Assembly: GCA_016215715.1 (NCBI GenBank) | Contig: JACRIG010000072.1 | Span: 1 to 25,757 of the forward strand | Source of the DNA: Candidatus Peregrinibacteria bacterium | Lineage (GTDB): Bacteria > Patescibacteriota > Gracilibacteria > Peribacterales > Peribacteraceae | DNA: 25,757 nucleotides | Direction: 5' to 3' | Part shown: positions 19,301 through 25,757 of the stretch, piece after piece | How the letters are laid out: each line of letters opens with the position of its first letter | Position numbering within the stretch: position 1 is the stretch's first letter | Translations under genes and position numbers: made by a program | The notes under the pieces: generated by a model | Told to the model about the DNA's origin: nothing | What the model saw: only the letters and a program-made list of their open reading frames with translations | Databases searched by the model: none

Positions 19301-20386
19301 ATGGATCAAAAGACAGCCCTTCTTTGGTGGCAGCTCAATGTGCTGAGCAAGCGCAGGTACGAGGCGATTCTGGAGGTGTATGGATCGCTTGATGAGGCCT
19401 CGAAACACGTTGGGGAAGAATTTCTGCGCGGGCTCGGTGTACGGGATGATGCTGTCCGCGCGGCACTCATCCGGCTGGAAACATTCGATGCGGATACAAT
19501 GGCGAAGAAACTGATTGAGAAAGAAGTCACGCTTCTCTCCATCGACGACGAAGCGTTTCCGGCGATTCTCCGTCAGATGGGGGATCCGCCGATATTCCTG
19601 TCGTACCTGGGAGATTTGTCCTGTCTCACACAGCCATTGATTGCGGTTGTCGGGACGCGCGGGATGACTGCGTACGGGAGACGTGTGGTCGGGGAATTCG
19701 TCCCGCGCTTTGTGCAGGCGGGGTGCGTGACCGTGAGCGGGCTGGCGCAGGGGATTGATACGGTGGTTGCGCAGGAAACACTCCGTGCCGGCGGCCGGAC
19801 GGTGGCGGTGCTGGGGCACGGGCTCGGGAATATTTTCCCGACGAACAACGTGAAACTCGCAGACGAGATTCTTGAGAAAGGCGGACTGCTCCTCAGCGAA
19901 TTCCCCATCGACATGTCCCCGGATTTCTACACGTTCCCCTCACGCAACAGGCTCATCGCGGGCTTGGGGCTCGGCACATTGGTCATCGAGGCGCCCGCGA
20001 AAAGCGGGGCGCTGATCACCGCCGAACTGGCACTGGACTACGACCGCGACGTCTTTGCCGTGCCCGGTCCGCTGTTTGATCCGAATGCGGTAGGGGTCAA
20101 TGACCTGATTGCCCGCGGACTTGCACGATTGGTGACGGCTCCCGACGACGTTCTGCGGGAGATCGGGATTGTCGCACCTGACGGAGCTCAGGCGACCTCC
20201 TCCTACACCCCCGAAACGGAGGACGAAAAGAAGGTCTGGAAGGCGCTGACGACGATGCCCCAGCCGGTGGATGATCTGGTCGTGGCCTCGGGGCTTCCTG
20301 CTCCGGCCGTGGCGGCTACGCTGACGATGATGGAGCTAGCCGGAGTGACCAAAAAGGTGGGGGCGGGGAGGTGGGTGCGGGGGTGA
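19301..20386 (+). CDS. dprA: DNA processing protein DprA/Smf
   Basis: IAVVGTR..T.YG, VSGLA.GID, FP.RNR+IAG, EA..KSGALITA..A...+RDVFAVPG; TGc-TAGACT 6 nt upstream. Confidence 0.96.
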   Translation: MDQKTALLWWQLNVLSKRRYEAILEVYGSLDEASKHVGEEFLRGLGVRDDAVRAALIRLETFDADTMAKKLIEKEVTLLSIDDEAFPAILRQMGDPPIFLSYLGDLSCLTQPLIAVVGTRGMTAYGRRVVGEFVPRFVQAGCVTVSGLAQGIDTVVAQETLRAGGRTVAVLGHGLGNIFPTNNVKLADEILEKGGLLLSEFPIDMSPDFYTFPSRNRLIAGLGLGTLVIEAPAKSGALITAELALDYDRDVFAVPGPLFDPNAVGVNDLIARGLARLVTAPDDVLREIGIVAPDGAQATSSYTPETEDEKKVWKALTTMPQPVDDLVVASGLPAPAVAATLTMMELAGVTKKVGAGRWVRG

Positions 20387-20388
20387 AA

Positions 20389-20425
20389 TTACGGGTTACG
20401 GGTTAGCTGGTTACGGGTTATTGGG
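20389..20425 (-). repeat. Heptamer-based array (TTACGGG x2, TTAGCTGG, TTACGGG, TTATTGGG on +)
   Basis: Read directly; begins 2 nt after the dprA stop. Confidence 0.8.
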
Positions 20426-20474
20426 TATTTCTTTGGGCTCAAAGGGAGGAGCCTGGGCTCATAGGGAAAAACCT

Positions 20475-20512
20475 CCTTCTCCCAGTGGGAGAAGGTCGGG
20501 ATGAGGGGAGTG
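20475..20512. repeat. BoxC/REP-like palindrome
   Basis: CCTTCTCCC-AGT-GGGAGAAGG followed by TCGGGATGAGGGG; resembles the widespread CCCTCTCCC..GGGAGAGGG..GGGGTGAGGG repeat type. Confidence 0.5.
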
Positions 20513-20531
20513 GGTGTCAGGGAGAGAGGAT

Positions 20532-21044
20532 TTAAGGAATTTTTATCCTCCACCCCACCCCAACCCCATGATTGTCGGTAAATCCGGCAGCCACTTCCAG
20601 TGCCGACAGGGCCTCTCCCTGAGAGGAATAGGTTGTGCAGGGGTCGGCGGTGCAGGGGGTCATCGTGGCAAAAGACACAAAATTCCCGGTGGTATCGAAG
20701 AAGAGAACATCGAGGGGAATCAGGGTATTTTTCATCCAGAAAGTCAGCTGCCGTGGCTCTGAAAAGGTGAAGAGCATGCCGCTGTCTGGCGCAAGAGCGG
20801 TCCGGTACATCAGCCCCTGCTCCTGCTCCGACGGCGTTGCGGCAATTTCGGCGTGGACGATGAGAGTTTCTCCGGAGGGACTGATCAGGTGAATATCCTG
20901 AACCGGCAGCTGAGCAATGTGCGAAGATGCGGACGAAGATTCCTGAGCCGATGAGGGAACCGATCCCTGAGCGGATTCCTGCGTTGCACTCCGCGCGCAT
21001 CCGGCGAGAAAGAGAATGCCGGCAAAAAGAAGTACGCGTTTCAT
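20532..21044 (-). CDS. DUF192-family lipoprotein
   Basis: Lipobox LAGC; E+A.TP.EQEQGLMYR, GMLF.F, FWMKNT.IPLD+.F. Confidence 0.9.
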   Translation of the reverse strand: MKRVLLFAGILFLAGCARSATQESAQGSVPSSAQESSSASSHIAQLPVQDIHLISPSGETLIVHAEIAATPSEQEQGLMYRTALAPDSGMLFTFSEPRQLTFWMKNTLIPLDVLFFDTTGNFVSFATMTPCTADPCTTYSSQGEALSALEVAAGFTDNHGVGVGWRIKIP

Positions 21045-21682
21045 TGTCCGGCTGCACGAAGATTCTTAATCGCGGCAGCACGATTTGCCGACTGAAAAAT
21101 GTAACTGCCCGATACAAGATTATCCGCACCTGCCTTCACACATTCTTGCGCGGTCACATCATCGATGCCGCCATCCATCTGAATCATCAGCTCGGGGAAT
21201 TTTTTGCGGAGAGCCGTTACCTTTTTCAGAACCGACGGGAGGAAACTCTGTCCGCCGAAGCCGGGCTCAACGGACATGATGAGGACGAGATCCACTTCCT
21301 CCACGATGTCATCGATTGCGATGGGGGAGGTGCCGGGGTTGAGGGCGATGCCAACGTTGGCGCCACCGGCGCGGATGCGTTCCATGAGGTTTTGACGTGC
21401 CGCGGTGTCGGTGACAGCTTCGGCATGAAAGGTGATGTTTTTCGCTCCCAGCTTTAAAAATTCATCAATGCGGTCGGCGGGGTTACTGACCATCAGATGG
21501 ATGTCGAGCGGGAGAGAGGTCCGCAGATTCTTCAGAACCGGCGCGCCGAAGCTGATGTTCTTCACGAAGTGCCCGTCCATGACGTCGACCTGTAGCCAGT
21601 CGGCGGAGCGGACGAAGTCCACTTCTTCCTGCAGGTGCGTGAGATCGGCGGAGAGTATTGACGGGGTTATAAGAAGAGACAT
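21041..21682 (-). CDS. rpe: Ribulose-phosphate 3-epimerase
   Basis: PSILSAD, VDVMDGHFV.N+SFG, DIHLMV, FHAE, +MSV.PGFGGQ.F, DGGI. Confidence 0.97.
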   Translation of the reverse strand: MSLLITPSILSADLTHLQEEVDFVRSADWLQVDVMDGHFVKNISFGAPVLKNLRTSLPLDIHLMVSNPADRIDEFLKLGAKNITFHAEAVTDTAARQNLMERIRAGGANVGIALNPGTSPIAIDDIVEEVDLVLIMSVEPGFGGQSFLPSVLKKVTALRKKFPELMIQMDGGIDDVTAQECVKAGADNLVSGSYIFQSANRAAAIKNLRAAGQ

Positions 21683-21688
21683 ATGGGG

Positions 21689-21766
21689 TTGCTGGTTAGC
21701 TGGTTGCTGGTTATGAGTGAAATGTTACGGGTTACGGGTTATGAGTTACGGGTTAAAAGTTATGCT
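21689..21766 (-). repeat. 11-unit heptamer-phased array spanning most of the rpiB-rpe gap
   Basis: + strand units TTGCTGG, TTAGCTGG, TTGCTGG, TTATGAG, TGAAATG, TTACGGG, TTACGGG, TTATGAG, TTACGGG, TTAAAAG, TTATGCT. Confidence 0.85.
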
Positions 21767-22199
21767 CGAGATCATCGATGCGCTTTTGATGTCGGCCACC
21801 TTCGAATGCTGTCGATAAAAATACGTCGACCATTTTCTTTGCGAGCTCTGGTTCGAGCATCCGGCCGCCGAGACTCAGAACATTTGCGTCGTTGTGCTTT
21901 CGGCAGAGCTTCGCATCTTCGGTCGTGCAGCACCGAGCGGCGCGGATACCTTTTACTTTATTCGCTGCGATCGATTCGCCGATGCCGCTGCCGCCGAAGA
22001 TGATGCCGGGCATTTTTTGCTCCAGCACCGCGGCGCAGGCTTTCCGCATGATGGCGGGATAGTCGACGGGTTCTTCGCTCATCGTTCCGACGTCGAAGAT
22101 GTCTATGCCCTGCGCGATCAGGTGCTCTTTGATGGCTTCTTTCAGAGCAAAACCCGCATGATCAGTGCCGAGGATGACGCGGGGAGGAGCTTTACTCAT
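21753..22199 (-). CDS. rpiB: Ribose-5-phosphate isomerase B
   Basis: G.DHAGF.LK, DYP, GSGIGESIAANKVKGIRAA, HNDANVL.LG.R, F.GGRH..RI. Confidence 0.97.
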   Translation of the reverse strand: MSKAPPRVILGTDHAGFALKEAIKEHLIAQGIDIFDVGTMSEEPVDYPAIMRKACAAVLEQKMPGIIFGGSGIGESIAANKVKGIRAARCCTTEDAKLCRKHNDANVLSLGGRMLEPELAKKMVDVFLSTAFEGGRHQKRIDDLEHNF

Positions 22200-22262
22200 G
22201 GCAGCATTCTAGCGGAGAGTATGCGTGCTGCCACCGTGGTACACTTTCCGCGACTCGCTCCC

Positions 22263-22970
22263 ATGCCCCGCACCAGACTCATCGCAGCAAACTGGAAAAT
22301 GAACCCGCCGCCGGCGGGATGGAATGAGGCCGATTCTCCGTACCGGCCGCGAACGGGTCTTGATGTGGTTGTCTTTCCGTCATTCGTTGATCTCGATACG
22401 TGCATGAAGGCGGGACTGACTGCGGGTGCGCAGTGCGGACGCAGCGAAGAAAAGGGGGCGTTCACGGGGGATGTGAGCATGCGGATGCTCAAAGGGCCCG
22501 GCTGCCGGTACGTGCTCTGCGGACACAGCGAGCGGAGGAAATTTCATCGTGAAACGGATGGTGATGTCGCAGCACAGGCGGCTGCGGCGTTTGCCCTCGG
22601 TATCACGCCCGTCCTGTGCATCGGCGAGAGTGCGGAGGAACGTGAGAGCGGAAACGCTCAGAAAAAAGTACGGGAGCAGCTTCAGAATATTTCATTCCCG
22701 GTGGTGATCGCGTACGAACCTGTATGGGCGATCGGGACGGGAAAATCTGCTGATCCCAAAAATGCTCAGGAAATGCATGCGTTCATCCGCTCACTTCTTG
22801 CCTCAGCGGAAGGTAAGCGGACGCGGATTCTCTATGGCGGATCCGTGAACGAAAAAAACGCGGCGGGGTTTCTGGCAGAGCCCGATATTGACGGGTTTCT
22901 GGTCGGTGGCGCATCGCTCGATCCGGCTGCATTCCGGGCCATTGTAGAGGCAGCCGCTCAAAGGCCGTAA
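22263..22970 (+). CDS. tpiA: Triosephosphate isomerase
   Basis: AANWKMN, GAFTGDVS, GHSERR, AYEPVWAIGTG, LYGGSV, LVGGASL; true start ATG 22263 inside the 21894 ORF. Confidence 0.97.
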   Translation: MPRTRLIAANWKMNPPPAGWNEADSPYRPRTGLDVVVFPSFVDLDTCMKAGLTAGAQCGRSEEKGAFTGDVSMRMLKGPGCRYVLCGHSERRKFHRETDGDVAAQAAAAFALGITPVLCIGESAEERESGNAQKKVREQLQNISFPVVIAYEPVWAIGTGKSADPKNAQEMHAFIRSLLASAEGKRTRILYGGSVNEKNAAGFLAEPDIDGFLVGGASLDPAAFRAIVEAAAQRP

Positions 22971-23097
22971 AAAGGCTTTTTGAGGCTGGAGTCTGACAGG
23001 AAAAGAGAGTGATCAGGGTTGTCATCCGAAGCCTTTTTTGCTACAATAAAGGGATTTCTCTTCAAAGGAGCCTGAGGCTCCACCCACAAAAATACAC

Positions 23098-25757
23098 ATG
23101 ACACTTCTCCCGCAGGACATCGGCAATATGGATGATCTGCGGCGGCAGAAGGAACGGATGTCCGGAGCCGCGGCACCGGAAGCGACGACCGAAGAAAAAA
23201 CGGCATATATCAGGACGATCCTTGCGCGTCTGAATTACGATCATCTGTCGCGGGCTGACAAAGGTCTCGTGCGGCATTTTTTGCAGACTGCAACCGGCTA
23301 CTCGCGCGCGCACGTGCAGCGGCAGATCGAGCAGTACCATCATCTGTCTGCAGAGAGCGATGTCGTCTCCGCTCTTTCTCCCGCGCGTACCTTTGTCATA
23401 CCACGCCTATCGCACCGGCATGCATCACTCATACTCACACTCGCGGCGCTTGCGATCGCCGGTTCTGCGACGCATCGTCTGCCCGCGGCTCTCACGGCGC
23501 GCGTCTGGAGCAGCGGCTCCGCGGCTGTCCGTTTCCATCTTGCGAAAACAGTCGTTCCCGTTGCCGCGTCGCAGTCGGGGATTACGACGGATATGATCCT
23601 TTCGGCCCGGGTACGCGAACGCCGACTGCAGCGACTGCAGGCCCGTGCTCATGACAATGACACTGCACCGTCCGGCGCGGTGACGGGGGGTTCATCGAAT
23701 CTGACGGCATCCCTTAACAGCGGGTTTGATACGCTTGCGACCGGGAAAGACGGGCAGGTGCTCATGGTGCAGAACGGCCGACCAATCTGGGTGACTCCTC
23801 CGTCCGCTCTGCGTCCCAGCGCCGGCATCGAGAATTCAGGAGCGGGACGGAGACCGGCGAGTGAAGGCGGGACGCGGACGTATGGAGGTGGCGGAGGAGG
23901 AGGTGGCGGCGGATCGACGACGATCACGAATATCACCAACGGGATCGTGCAGGCGGATGCCGACGGCCGGTACGTCAATGTCGGAGGGGATACGGTCGCC
24001 GGTCAACTGAGCATTGAAGCCAGCGGCATCGCGCTGCGCGTGACAGGGACAACTTCCGGAAAAATGCTGCATACGGAACAGGGCATCACGTCGTCCGGGG
24101 GATTGGTTCTTGAAGGAACCCTCAGTGGCGCCACCATCGGTGGCTTCGGCCTGCCGTCCGGCGGATGCACGGGCAGCGCCAACAAGCTCGTGTGGGATGC
24201 GTCGACGCAAAAGTTTGCCTGTGCCGCCGATCAGACGGTCGGATCGGGACTCTCGCAGACGACGGGTGATGAACGGTACCTGAAGCAGTCCGGCGGCACT
24301 CTCACCGGTGCCCTCACGGTCCGTGTTACCAGTGGTGTGTACTCGACACTCGGCCTCGAAGTGGAAAATACCCTCTCCGGTGCCGTCATCCGCGCATCGC
24401 AGACGCTCGCTTCTTCGGGAGGACTCGTGTTTGAAGGGGCGGGATCGGGCGCCTCCCTCACCGTCTCCACGGCCTTCGATGGAGCGGGCTTGAGTGATTG
24501 TGATACCGCCGGCACCAGCAAGCTCCTCTGGGACGCAACGACGAAACGTTTCAGCTGCGGCACGGATCAGAACAGCGGCGGCGGCACCACCTTCGGTTCC
24601 GGTCAGGTGCTCAACATCGGAGATGCACGGTACCTCAGACAATCCGGAGGAACACTCACCGGTGCACTGACCATCAATGTGACGAACGGCAATCGTGCAA
24701 CGCTGGATCTCGAAGTGACACATCTGCTTTCCGGCTCCGTCATCCGGGCGCAGGACACACTCGCTTCCAGCGGAACTTTGGTTTTCGAAGGCGCAGGTTC
24801 AGGAGCATCGCTCACGGTTTCCACGTCTCTCGAGGGAGCGGGTCTCACCGACTGTGATACCGCCGGCTCCAGCAAGCTCCTCTGGGACACCACCACCAAG
24901 CGGTTCAGCTGCGGAACCGACACTGACACCGATACCAACACCACCTACACCGCCGGACAGGGTCTCACCCTCACCGCCACCTCCTTCAAAGTGAATGCCA
25001 CGCTCACCGGTACCACGCTGAAGTTCGCCACCACCTCGGGCTCCATCATTCATGCCGACAACGAACTCCGCAGCTCCGGCACGCTCGTCATCAACGGTGC
25101 CGTGACCTTCAAGTCCACTCTTGCGGTCACCAGCACCAGCATCTTCAGTAACAACATCACGCTCCGCGGGCGTCTCTCCGGCTCCATCCTGCACGCCGAC
25201 AATCAGCTTCGGTCTTCCGGTTCCCTGATTGTAGAAGGCAACATGTCGGGAGCGACACTTGAGGGCGCGAACCTTACGGACTGTGATACTGCGGGCACAT
25301 CCAAACTTCTCTGGGATGCGACAACCAAGAAGTTCAGCTGCGGCTCGGATCAGAACAGCGGCGGCGGTACCACCTTCGGTTCGGGGCAGGTCCTCTCGAT
25401 TGGTGACGCCCGCTACGTCAATACCTCCGGCGACACGATGACCGGAGCGCTGACCATCCGTGTCACCGGCGCCACCCGCATGTCGCTGGCTGCGGAAGTC
25501 GAAACCCTCCTCTCCGGCTCCATCCTCCGCGCGCAGGACACCCTCGCCTCTTCGGGCACCCTCGTCTTCGAGGGAGCAGGCTCCGGCTCCGTCCTCACGG
25601 TCAGCGGACAGTTCGATGGTGTGGGTCTCACCGACTGCGACGGTGCCACGCAGACACTCGCGTGGGACACCACCACCAAACGGTTCTCCTGCGGCACCGA
25701 CAGTGACACCACCTACACCGCCGGACAGGGCCTCACCCTCACCGCGACGGCCTTCTC
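23098..25757 (+). CDS. Giant Gly/Ser/Thr-rich tail-fibre/adhesin-like repeat protein (3'-truncated by the window, >886 aa) with N-terminal HTH-like segment and hydrophobic anchor; not in the ORF track
   Basis: Hand translation shows no stop from ATG 23098 (or 23128) to the window end. Poly-Gly 23884-23913; RYxxxxGxTxxGxL motifs at 23968, 24274, 24628, 25411; C...LxWD...F.C modules. Extended -10 TGc-TACAAT at 23039-23047. Confidence 0.9.
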   Translation, partial: MTLLPQDIGNMDDLRRQKERMSGAAAPEATTEEKTAYIRTILARLNYDHLSRADKGLVRHFLQTATGYSRAHVQRQIEQYHHLSAESDVVSALSPARTFVIPRLSHRHASLILTLAALAIAGSATHRLPAALTARVWSSGSAAVRFHLAKTVVPVAASQSGITTDMILSARVRERRLQRLQARAHDNDTAPSGAVTGGSSNLTASLNSGFDTLATGKDGQVLMVQNGRPIWVTPPSALRPSAGIENSGAGRRPASEGGTRTYGGGGGGGGGGSTTITNITNGIVQADADGRYVNVGGDTVAGQLSIEASGIALRVTGTTSGKMLHTEQGITSSGGLVLEGTLSGATIGGFGLPSGGCTGSANKLVWDASTQKFACAADQTVGSGLSQTTGDERYLKQSGGTLTGALTVRVTSGVYSTLGLEVENTLSGAVIRASQTLASSGGLVFEGAGSGASLTVSTAFDGAGLSDCDTAGTSKLLWDATTKRFSCGTDQNSGGGTTFGSGQVLNIGDARYLRQSGGTLTGALTINVTNGNRATLDLEVTHLLSGSVIRAQDTLASSGTLVFEGAGSGASLTVSTSLEGAGLTDCDTAGSSKLLWDTTTKRFSCGTDTDTDTNTTYTAGQGLTLTATSFKVNATLTGTTLKFATTSGSIIHADNELRSSGTLVINGAVTFKSTLAVTSTSIFSNNITLRGRLSGSILHADNQLRSSGSLIVEGNMSGATLEGANLTDCDTAGTSKLLWDATTKKFSCGSDQNSGGGTTFGSGQVLSIGDARYVNTSGDTMTGALTIRVTGATRMSLAAEVETLLSGSILRAQDTLASSGTLVFEGAGSGSVLTVSGQFDGVGLTDCDGATQTLAWDTTTKRFSCGTDSDTTYTAGQGLTLTATAF
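24166..25757 (+). repeat. Internal protein repeat modules with 354-nt and 783-nt periods
   Basis: First Cys of each module at 24166, 24499, 24853, 25282, 25636; TTYTAGQGLTLTA encoded almost identically at 24943 and 25708. Confidence 0.85.

What the first reader, a model, noticed from the sequence alone, without database searches (positions are those of the whole stretch)
23098..23463. Transposase-like HTH fused through a hydrophobic anchor to a giant tail-fibre-like surface protein
Seen: residues at 23191-23337 (EEKTAYIRTILARLNYDHLSRADKGLVRHFLQTATGYSRAHVQRQIEQY) precede a short hydrophobic stretch (ASLILTLAALAIAG, 23422-23463) and more than 750 aa of downstream sequence, largely adhesin/tail-fibre-like repeats. 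From memory, the segment closely resembles the N-terminal helical/HTH region (Y..L.+.+KG+V..YL...TGYSRAQ+.RLI.QY) of a family of integrase-core IS transposases; no DDE core follows. Inference: a domesticated transposase DNA-binding domain on the cytoplasmic side of a membrane-anchored filament. This would be a one-component link between the chromosome and a host-contact appendage, for example DNA tethering, contact-responsive regulation or DNA delivery/uptake; dprA is about 3 kb away.
Basis: partly seen in the sequence, partly recalled or inferred. Interest (0 to 1): 0.72.

Follow-up and report, generated by a model that had tools for sequence, protein, structure and literature searches.

The report
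Giant surface fibre with DNA-binding head
An ultra-small groundwater bacterium (Peribacteraceae, CPR) makes a giant phage-tail-fibre-like surface protein whose inner, cytoplasmic tip is a DNA-binding domain borrowed from a transposase, and the DNA palindrome it most likely recognises sits on the gene's own promoter in about 30 related genera, so the fibre probably controls its own production from the membrane.

Summary
ORF 23098-25755 (+) runs off the contig end. It begins with an 85-residue four-helix domain, then one membrane helix, then tail-fibre-like repeats.

The head is homologous to the N-terminal HTH domain of integrase-core (rve, IS481-like) transposases: hhalign 99.8%, and AlphaFold DB matches at 1.4-2.8 A rmsd. 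No DDE core follows.

The fusion is a conserved, single-copy, syntenic gene in about half of the Peribacteraceae genomes sampled, with proteins up to 5006 aa. The head is under purifying selection (dN/dS about 0.2-0.35). Flanking charges put it in the cytoplasm.

New here:
- A palindrome, TGAGCCT-N-AGGCTCA, lies between the -10 box and the ATG of nearly all orthologs (window 23067-23081). Close matches elsewhere in these genomes are confined to this locus.
- It shows no compensatory changes of the kind an RNA stem would show.
- The one genus that lacks it has also lost the conserved GYSRAQ recognition helix.

Best reading: a membrane-tethered, self-regulating transcription regulator whose ectodomain is the fibre. 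DNA binding is inferred, not shown.

Contig C62 probably holds the 3' end, with a phi29 gp12-type autochaperone domain. I found no support for a link to dprA.

This scan has noted the same principle before, on other CPR genomes. I found no publication describing it.

The parts
23019..23047 (+). Sigma-70-type promoter: -35 TTGTCA (23019-23024), 17-nt spacer, TG-extended -10 TGCTACAAT (23039-23047)
   Evidence: Promoter scan gives 10 of 12 matches with TG before the -10, against 0.0 expected in shuffles. A GCTATAAT-like -10 box sits at the same relative place in 29 of 31 orthologous upstream regions.
23067..23081 (.). Operator-like palindrome GGAGCC-TGA-GGCTCC, the local form of the family consensus TGAGCCT-N-AGGCTCA, about +14 to +28 from the predicted transcription start
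   Evidence: It is the only GAGCC-N3-GGCTC in the 697-kb genome. GGCTCA/AGGCTCA/ATGAGCC are the commonest 6- to 8-mers in 31 orthologous upstream regions, with 64 half-sites seen against 1.8 expected. Matches with at most 1 mismatch in 5 near-complete relatives lie only at this locus. No compensatory changes occur in stem pairs 2-7. As RNA it would fold at -10.6 kcal/mol.
23082..23097 (+). A/C-rich leader without a Shine-Dalgarno motif (ACCCACAAAAATACAC)
   Evidence: Read from the sequence. A similar CACAAACACCCAC-type leader precedes the ATG in most orthologs.
23098..25755 (+). 5' part (886 codons) of the giant fibre gene, cut off by the contig end
   Evidence: ORF listing and translation. 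The window is the whole contig C47.
23122..23376 (+). Cytoplasmic four-helix head (residues 9-93) derived from a transposase N-terminal domain; helices 11-21, 31-44, 52-66 and 70-93
23251..23337 (+). Helix-turn-helix core (residues 52-80: DKGLVRHFLQTATGYSRAHVQRQIEQY); recognition helix starts at S69-R70
   Evidence: Invariant L42, Y47, G56, Y68 and R75, and nearly invariant R52, R59, G67, S69 and R70, in 41 family members. GYSRA is kept in 29 of 31 orthologs and lost only where the palindrome is absent.
23413..23472 (+). Single transmembrane helix (residues 106-125), N-in orientation
   Evidence: The model predicts a helix at 106-125. A hydrophobic segment aligns here in about 50 relatives. 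K+R averages 2.7 on the N-side against 1.2 on the C-side, with N>C in 28 of 34.
23473..23967 (+). Extracellular stalk, including a Gly10 tract (residues 263-272, 23884-23913)
   Evidence: Translation and coordinates. In G015 the gene is split exactly at the corresponding poly-Gly tract.
23968..25755 (+). Tail-fibre-like repeats of about 120-140 aa (GGTLTGALT ... CDTAGxSKLLWD ... FSCGTD), each with a Cys pair
   Evidence: Motif positions. The same repeats occur in orthologs at 30-53% identity. PHROG tail-fibre hits at E 5e-7.
20449..20460 (.). Second, N2-spaced copy of the palindrome (GAGCCTGGGCTC, with a further GGGCTCA half-site 10 nt upstream), between the 3' ends of dprA and DUF192
   Evidence: Genome-wide pattern count. 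Relatives also carry extra copies 1-3 kb from the fibre gene, in neighbouring intergenic regions.

Best explanation
The gene encodes the start of a giant, probably trimeric, phage-tail-fibre-like surface fibre of a Peribacteraceae (CPR/Patescibacteria) bacterium. The protein has at least 1764 residues if contig C62 holds its 3' end. One N-in transmembrane helix anchors it in the cytoplasmic membrane. Its cytoplasmic tip (residues 9-93) is a homeodomain-like helix-turn-helix domain, taken once from the N-terminus of an IS481-like integrase-core transposase without the catalytic core.

Shown: the homology, the architecture, the conservation, the synteny, the orientation bias, and a gene-specific conserved palindrome.

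Inferred: the head binds the half-sites (A)TGAGCC(T) of that palindrome, which lies just downstream of the gene's own -10 box, and sometimes further half-sites upstream. The fibre protein would then regulate its own transcription from the membrane. Repression is the likeliest direction, because the site sits at about +14 to +28.

The head is the first part of a very long protein to leave the ribosome. It could therefore act in cis and co-translationally, as transposases do, and hold the gene at the membrane while the fibre is exported. This makes the protein a transmembrane transcription regulator in the broad sense, with the fibre itself as its outer part.
For: - Homology of the head to transposase N-termini: phmmer, hhalign 99.84% and E 2.3e-30, AlphaFold DB hits at rmsd 1.4-2.8 A over 77-86 residues, homeodomain-like fold.
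- No rve domain in P0001.
- One origin: 54 of 55 TM-linked heads lie on one side of a 99/93 branch.
- Distribution: one copy per genome in 30 of 64 family genomes, and none with a TM or giant ORF outside the family.
- Synteny: the gene lies next to the DUF192-rpe-rpiB-tpiA-dprA block.
- Purifying selection: dN/dS 0.18-0.35.
- Orientation and charge: positive-inside in 28 of 34, and a basic HTH core with pI mostly 9-10.
- Palindrome frequency: it tops an unbiased k-mer count of 31 upstream regions, with 64 half-sites seen against 1.8 expected.
- Palindrome specificity: it is unique in the own genome. Matches with at most 1 mismatch occur only at this locus in 5 near-complete genomes. The family scan gave 26 sites against 1 for the control, and every site with a TNA centre lies beside such a gene.
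- Half-sites upstream of the -10 box, probably in untranscribed DNA: 20 seen against 1.1 expected.
- No compensatory changes in stem pairs 2-7; departures from the consensus break pairing.
- The only orthologs without the site (genus g11: G010, G145) are the only ones whose recognition helix lost GYSRAQ, reading AYSLPH and GYSVSH.
Against: - DNA binding is not demonstrated, and no tool here tests protein-DNA contacts.
- The palindrome would also form a stable 5' RNA hairpin (-10.6 kcal/mol) and could act at the RNA level or be bound by another factor.
- The spacing between half-sites varies (N2, N3, N12), which is unusual for a rigid dimer.
- The joint loss of helix and site is a single phylogenetic event.
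- A trimeric fibre does not fit neatly with a two-fold symmetric site.
- The window's own head is less basic than most (pI 7.5), and its site is a variant (G...C flanks).
- Extra copies of the palindrome lie between convergent genes in some relatives, which plain autoregulation does not explain.
- The homodimer prediction gave no verdict.
Confidence: 0.6

Rival explanations
1. The head is a cytoplasmic protein-binding or anchoring module, as in RodZ, where an N-terminal HTH binds MreB rather than DNA. On this reading the conserved palindrome is unrelated to it: a 5'-terminal RNA hairpin that stabilises a very long mRNA, or the site of some other regulator.
For: The stem-loop is stable as RNA and lies near the predicted 5' end of the transcript. 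Spacing varies (N2, N3, N12), which a hairpin tolerates better than a dimeric operator does. HTH-TM proteins whose HTH binds a protein are known (RodZ, from my own knowledge). The homodimer prediction gave no verdict.
Against: Among 16 distinct site sequences there are no compensatory changes in stem pairs 2-7, and variation breaks pairs. Half-sites are also enriched upstream of the -10 box. The stem sequence itself is conserved across genera whose other intergenic DNA cannot be aligned. The site is specific to this gene, so any other regulator would have a regulon of one locus. The recognition helix and its basic residues are the most conserved part of the head. Site and helix are lost together in genus g11.
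Confidence: 0.2
2. The protein is a proteolysis-activated membrane-tethered regulator (Notch/SREBP/RIP logic). Fibre engagement, signal-peptidase cutting or intramembrane cleavage would release the head into the cytoplasm, where it regulates the palindrome-bearing locus. Host contact would thereby be coupled to gene expression.
For: It rests on the same architecture and operator evidence as the main explanation. Small residues follow the TM helix in many members (AG|S, IA|G). The head-linker-TM module is conserved in front of quite different ectodomains, such as LVIVD/beta-propeller in P0009 and P0013 and fibre repeats here.
Against: No cleavage site, protease partner or released form can be shown with these tools. 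The linker between head and helix is short and variable. Nothing here shows a response to contact.
Confidence: 0.12
3. The head tethers or handles DNA for uptake or delivery through, or beside, the fibre, in functional connection with dprA about 3 kb away.
For: dprA lies within a few kb of the gene in the window and in several relatives. CPR bacteria are thought to depend on imported nucleic acids (general knowledge).
Against: Housekeeping sugar-phosphate genes (tpiA, rpiB, rpe), DUF192 and sometimes purC lie between dprA and the fibre gene, and no competence or pilus genes are adjacent. DprA acts on incoming single-stranded DNA in the cytoplasm and needs no fibre. The palindrome points to a sequence-specific site at the gene itself.
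Confidence: 0.04
4. The fusion is an artefact: an IS remnant or misassembly joined in frame to a fibre gene whose real start, or a cleaved signal peptide, lies downstream.
For: Some relatives carry the head-TM part and the fibre in two overlapping frames (G003, G376, G015). Gene callers often mis-start at the ATG inside the palindrome, giving 'MSLRL...'.
Against: The same continuous head-TM-fibre ORF occurs in many independent assemblies, up to 3919 aa in genomes and 5006 aa in metagenomes. The head is under purifying selection. The gene is single-copy and syntenic with no DDE core or IS ends. The N-terminus aligns from residue 1.
Confidence: 0.02

Closest known systems
Transmembrane transcription regulators (ToxR, TcpP, CadC and others; surveyed by Demey et al. 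2023, PMC10269533)
   Same: One polypeptide with an N-terminal cytoplasmic DNA-binding-type domain, a single TM helix and an extracytoplasmic part. It is inferred to act on DNA from the membrane. Single-pass forms with HTH domains are the commonest type in that survey.
   Different: The head is a transposase-derived homeodomain-like HTH that no Pfam model detects. It is not the OmpR/PhoB winged helix of ToxR/CadC. The outer part is a giant tail-fibre-like structural protein of thousands of residues rather than a small sensor domain. The only conserved target appears to be its own locus. The survey's main text holds none of the words transposase, giant, Patescibacteria or Candidate Phyla.
N-terminal domain of IS481-like integrase-core (rve) transposases (for example P0110, 420 aa)
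   Same: Homologous over about 87 residues, including the first helix and the KG...TGYSRAQ..RLI helix-turn-helix. The same IS group is present in Peribacteraceae and other Patescibacteria.
   Different: There is no DDE/rve core, no terminal repeats and no multicopy behaviour. The gene is single-copy, syntenic and followed by a TM helix. The heads of the fibre proteins form their own clade.
RodZ (N-terminal cytoplasmic HTH, one TM helix, periplasmic domain)
   Same: The same three-part layout with a cytoplasmic HTH in front of a signal-anchor helix (from my own knowledge).
   Different: The RodZ HTH is of the XRE type and binds MreB, not DNA. No RodZ-type family matched. RodZ has no giant ectodomain and no known cognate palindrome at its promoter.
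Bacteriophage phi29 gp12 tail spike (pre-neck appendage) with its C-terminal autochaperone (PDB 3GQH; Pfam Peptidase_G2)
   Different: It is a cellular, membrane-anchored protein, not a virion part. The domain is followed by about 450 more residues, including a Ser/Pro/Glu-rich tail. Pfam PF11962 is not detected at E 0.01. Autocleavage and trimerisation are untested.

Membership tests
Transmembrane transcription regulators (broad sense, Demey et al. 2023) | A DNA-binding-type domain in the polypeptide | tested here: met
   HTH domain homologous to transposase DNA-binding N-termini, with a homeodomain-like fold. No Pfam DNA-binding model matches, so a Pfam-based census would miss it.
Transmembrane transcription regulators (broad sense, Demey et al. 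2023) | At least one transmembrane helix in the same protein, with the DNA-binding domain on the cytoplasmic side | tested here: met
   Predicted helix at 106-125, conserved in about 50 relatives. The positive-inside bias favours an N-in orientation in 28 of 34. This is a prediction, not an experiment.
Transmembrane transcription regulators (broad sense, Demey et al. 2023) | Binds DNA and regulates transcription while membrane-bound | not testable with these tools
   Indirect evidence only: a gene-specific conserved palindrome at the promoter, lost together with the recognition helix in genus g11.
ToxR/CadC family proper | OmpR/PhoB-type winged-helix DNA-binding domain (Trans_reg_C) | tested here: not met
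   No Trans_reg_C or other Pfam hit on residues 1-260 at E 10. The fold is a homeodomain-like three-helix HTH preceded by an extra N-terminal helix.
IS481/IS3-superfamily integrase-core transposase | DDE catalytic core (Pfam rve) | tested here: not met
   No rve in P0001. The head is followed by a linker, a TM helix and fibre repeats.
IS481/IS3-superfamily integrase-core transposase | N-terminal HTH domain of the family | tested here: met
   hhalign 99.84% over 87 columns. AlphaFold DB 'Integrase' N-termini match at rmsd 1.4-2.8 A.
IS481/IS3-superfamily integrase-core transposase | Mobile element: terminal repeats, variable location, often several copies | tested here: not met
   One copy per genome and conserved neighbours across genera. 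The IS copies in related genomes carry different subterminal direct repeats.
Phage tail spike/fibre with gp12-type (Peptidase_G2) intramolecular chaperone | C-terminal autochaperone fold | tested here: met
   [not shown]
Phage tail spike/fibre with gp12-type (Peptidase_G2) intramolecular chaperone | Sequence membership in Pfam PF11962, and autocleavage | tested here: inconclusive
   Pfam finds no PF11962 at E 0.01. Atlas leads point to Peptidase_G2 clusters. An invariant Asp aligns with gp12 D692. Cleavage cannot be tested here.
   No such hit on P0003.
RodZ | XRE-type HTH plus the RodZ C-terminal domain | tested here: not met
   No matching Pfam or NCBIfam family. The head is transposase-type.

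The most novel reading that the evidence does not exclude
The fibre is itself the sensor. Mechanical or chemical engagement of the giant fibre with a host cell would be passed through the single helix, or through regulated cleavage, to the transposase-derived head, which sits on its own gene's operator. Surface contact would then be wired directly to the chromosome. Alternatively, binding in cis by the nascent head tethers the gene to the membrane as an obligatory step in exporting a protein of thousands of residues. Either would be a new regulatory principle, and one that seems to recur with different HTH types across CPR bacteria.
Probability: 0.2. Interest if true: 0.88.

Novelty: new variant of a known kind. 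Interest (0 to 1): 0.72.

Why it matters
CPR/Patescibacteria live attached to other cells. Their giant surface proteins are prime candidates for host contact, but nothing is known about how these proteins are controlled.

Here a giant fibre carries its own DNA-binding-type head, recruited once from a transposase. The matching palindrome sits on the gene's own promoter in about 30 genera. This yields a short, concrete and testable circuit of a 98-residue domain and a 15-bp site, which can be studied in vitro or in E. coli without cultivating the organism.

It also shows three further things:
- It is a clean case of a transposase domain recruited into a structural protein.
- Pfam-based censuses of membrane-bound regulators miss this class, because the domain has no model.
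- Gene callers often mis-start these genes at the ATG inside the operator.

Tried and rejected
- **Pfam and NCBIfam on the head:** no hit even at E 10.
- **Word-indexed protein search of residues 1-200:** only the protein itself.
- **Profile search of PDB sequences:** nothing.
- **The search for related loci with the alignment:** I used the genome search instead.
- **Homodimer prediction of residues 1-98:** no verdict, and no evidence either way.
- **Rfam on 22900-23250:** no family.
- **RNA data:** only one groundwater DNA metagenome holds the locus, so neither expression nor a transcription start could be checked.
- **Palindrome as a relic of the IS terminal repeat:** the related IS copies carry direct subterminal repeats (for example ...ACAAGATGAGACTGAAC...). 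These share at most an ATGAG core with the site, so I make no claim.
- **Functional link to dprA:** rejected as unsupported.
- **S74 chaperone:** not found; the domain is gp12-type.
- **Terminator function for the palindrome:** no T-run and no terminator-like site.
- **Downstream start:** rejected by N-terminal alignment and conservation.
- **Whole C-terminal model:** poor overall (mean pLDDT 49.6). I used only the confident 137-280 and 367-451 stretches.
Full report
**1. The observation**

The window is a whole contig (C47) of a 697-kb, 85%-complete, 55.7% G+C genome in 118 contigs. ORF 23098-25755 (+) is open at the contig end and gives 886 residues.

- Residues 32-80 are encoded at 23191-23337.
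- The hydrophobic stretch, residues 109-122, is at 23422-23463.
- A further 764 residues follow.

ATG 23098 is the first start after an in-frame TAA. The first 20 residues (MTLLPQDIGNMDDLRRQ) align with the N-termini of relatives such as MDFDPRKLGSLDDVRAYL. The head therefore belongs to the protein.

**2. The head is a transposase N-terminal domain without the transposase**

Pfam and NCBIfam see nothing in residues 1-260. An exhaustive phmmer search of residues 1-140 against 1.84 billion representative proteins found 130 relatives at E below 1e-3, always matching at their N-termini. They fall into two groups.

- **Group A (about 50 clusters).** These have the same domain, a variable linker, a strong TM helix at about residue 100-135, and then long sequences of up to 3482, 4240 and 5006 residues.
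- **Group B.** These have no TM helix, begin 'MIVTLQTERLRTLEQVRxFL...' and include integrase-core transposases. P0110 (420 aa) hits rve at E 1.4e-5 and the IS481 model at 48 bits, far below its cut-off. One of its sequences sits on 21 contigs, as expected for an active IS.

A profile-profile comparison of the two N-terminal alignments gives 99.84% probability and E 2.3e-30 over 87 columns. The match reaches beyond the HTH into the first helix.

An AlphaFold2 model built on the group A alignment is confident, with pLDDT above 90 for residues 11-90. It shows four helices followed by a helix at 106-125. Its best matches in AlphaFold DB are the first 80-odd residues of proteins named 'Integrase' or 'Integrase, catalytic region', at rmsd 1.4-2.8 A and probability 1.00.

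A tree of 121 domains puts 54 of 55 group A heads on one side of a 99/93-supported branch. This fits a single recruitment event. The tree has two limits:
- Seven rows were assigned to group A by HMM score rather than by the presence of a TM helix.
- The constrained one-clade test did not finish.

**3. The fusion is a conserved cellular gene**

Source names place the relatives in Candidatus Peregrinibacteria / Peribacteraceae.

| Sample | Result |
|---|---|
| Same GTDB family | 30 of 64 genomes carry the head-TM gene, nearly always one copy; open frames up to 3919 aa |
| 336 genomes of other families in the class | 5 matches, all short ORFs of transposase length |
| 390 genomes of other families in the phylum | 9 matches, almost all ORFs of transposase length (about 300-440 aa) or short fragments |

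The neighbours are conserved. The gene lies beside DUF192, rpe, rpiB, tpiA and dprA, and sometimes purC. Compared with G017, the window has the four-gene block tpiA-rpiB-rpe-DUF192 inverted.

The head evolves under purifying selection, with dN/dS 0.18-0.35. The least saturated pair gives 0.22. The head is also better conserved than the linker or the ectodomain.

Lys+Arg counts in the 15 residues either side of the helix average 2.7 on the N-side and 1.2 on the C-side, with N>C in 28 of 34 proteins. The head is therefore predicted to be cytoplasmic. Its HTH core is basic in most members (pI 9-10), but only 7.5 in the window's protein.

**4. The rest of the protein**

The window holds fibre repeats of about 120-140 residues, each with a Cys pair. 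PHROG tail-fibre hits to them are weak.

In the own genome these repeats occur in only two places: the end of C47 and the open end of contig C62. The head occurs only on C47. A conserved C-terminal domain occurs only on C62. That C-terminal domain also ends the full-length relatives P0066, P0013, P0054 and G023. C62 is therefore most likely the 3' end of the same gene, which gives at least 1764 residues.

Other family members have different ectodomains, such as the LVIVD/beta-propeller domains in P0009 and P0013. The head-TM module is thus a portable N-terminal unit.

**5. A gene-specific palindrome on the promoter**

I lined up the 160 nt upstream of 31 orthologs. This revealed a GCTATAAT-type -10 box, then a palindrome with consensus (A)TGAGCCT-N-AGGCTCA(T), then an A/C-rich leader without a Shine-Dalgarno motif.

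In the window the elements are:
- -35 TTGTCA at 23019
- TG-extended -10, ending at 23047
- GGAGCCTGAGGCTCC at 23067-23081
- ATG at 23098

*Frequency and specificity*
- An unbiased k-mer count ranks GGCTCA (27 of 31 regions), AGGCTCA (25) and ATGAGCC (24) above the -10 box. Half-sites number 64, against 1.8 expected from the genome's own frequency.
- GAGCC-N3-GGCTC occurs once in the own genome.
- In five near-complete relatives, matches with at most 1 mismatch lie only at this locus. Two-mismatch matches are no commoner than the reversed-pattern control.
- Across 71 family genomes the exact 15-mer occurs 26 times, against once for the control. Every site with a TNA centre lies beside a head-TM gene, including four genomes I had not examined before.
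- Some genomes have extra copies 1-3 kb away, in neighbouring intergenic regions. The window has an N2-spaced copy at 20449, between dprA and DUF192.

*DNA site or RNA hairpin?*

As RNA the element would fold at -10.6 kcal/mol. Three observations favour recognition of the sequence as DNA:
- Among 16 distinct versions there is no compensatory change in stem pairs 2-7. Variation breaks pairs.
- Half-sites are also enriched upstream of the -10 box, with 20 seen against 1.1 expected.
- The stem sequence itself is conserved between genera whose other intergenic DNA does not align.

*Link to the head*

The only two orthologs without any site (G010 and G145, one genus) are also the only two whose recognition helix has lost GYSRAQ, reading AYSLPH and GYSVSH. 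This is one evolutionary event, so it is suggestive only.

**6. Mechanism and its limits**

The simplest account is that the head binds these half-sites. The fibre protein would then regulate its own gene from the membrane, probably by repression given the site's position at about +14 to +28. It may act in cis as the nascent chain emerges.

Not shown: DNA binding, the sign of the regulation, any signal, the oligomeric state, or whether the helix is cut.

Points against this account:
- The spacing between half-sites varies (N2, N3, N12).
- A probably trimeric fibre does not match a two-fold symmetric site.
- Some extra copies lie between convergent genes.
- The window's own head is only weakly basic.

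Rivals are listed with their odds in the Rival explanations section.

**7. Comparison with what is known**

Transmembrane transcription regulators are an established class (PMC10269533). That survey's main text contains none of the words transposase, giant, Patescibacteria or Candidate Phyla. The Peribacteria genome paper reports large, Cys-rich extracellular proteins that vary between strains, but it does not mention a DNA-binding head (PMC4736985). I found no paper describing this architecture.

Earlier notes of this scan report the same principle on other CPR genomes, with transposase-type and MerR/excisionase-type heads, several with promoter palindromes. I found the palindrome before reading them. 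They are unchecked AI notes, not independent evidence. One of them describes a two-gene form. I did see split forms in G003, G376 and G015.

**8. Verdict**

The gene is a new variant of the membrane-bound regulator idea: a transposase-derived head on a giant, phage-fibre-like surface protein with a cognate-looking site on its own promoter. It is directly testable with a 98-residue domain and a 15-bp site.

Noticed in passing
window 20449-20460 and 20386-23098: A second, N2-spaced palindrome (GAGCCTGGGCTC, with a further GGGCTCA half-site 10 nt upstream) lies between the 3' ends of dprA and DUF192. Compared with relatives such as G017 (dprA+, tpiA-, rpiB+, rpe+, DUF192+, fibre+), the window has the four-gene block inverted, and palindrome copies lie near both ends of the inverted block. 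Orientations in this block also differ among other relatives (G436, G021, G419). The palindromes may mark recombination points.
   Followed up: partly
L025, L023, L055, L058; proteins P0005, P0007: Gene callers often start these genes, and sometimes neighbouring ones such as rpiB in G021, at the ATG inside the palindrome (ATGAGCCTGAGGCTC = MSLRL). This gives false 'MSLRL...' N-termini in which the A/C-rich leader is translated.
   Followed up: partly
L007 (G015), L062 (G003), L063 (G376): In some relatives the head-TM part and the fibre lie in two overlapping frames. G015 is split exactly at the poly-Gly tract. Four separate representatives (P0027, P0078, P0102, G376) end the first ORF with a conserved ...KP(L/I)ACC(R/E). 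The frame offsets differ (+1 in G003 and G015, -1 in G376). The cause could be real two-gene forms, frameshifting or assembly errors, and remains open.
   Followed up: partly
G020:C38:4056-4727 (L011) and G236:C11:1805-2809 (L053): The head is duplicated in tandem (two copies in G020, three in G236) in front of the TM helix. G236 also has two extra direct AAATGAGCC half-sites upstream of its -10 box. In G020 the half-sites are 12 nt apart instead of 3.
   Followed up: partly
[not shown]
   Followed up: yes
L017 (G010:C4:140000-159999): In G010 the 2715-aa head-TM-fibre ORF is followed, with a 313-nt overlap in another frame, by a second ORF of at least 2511 aa that carries the gp12-like C-terminal region. 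It may be one gene of more than 5000 codons broken by a frameshift. This genus also lacks the palindrome and the GYSRAQ helix.
   Followed up: partly
L044-L050 (IS copies in Peribacteraceae and other Patescibacteria): The related integrase-core transposase genes are preceded by pairs of direct subterminal repeats about 20 nt long (for example CTCATACAAGATGAGACTGAAC twice in G345). These are probably transposase binding sites. They share at most an ATGAG core with the fibre-gene palindrome.
   Followed up: partly
window 23884-23913: A Gly10 tract encoded by mixed GGN codons (ggaggtggcggaggaggaggtggcggcgga) lies just before the fibre repeats. It is not a homopolymer, so slippage would change its length rather than the reading frame.
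   Followed up: no
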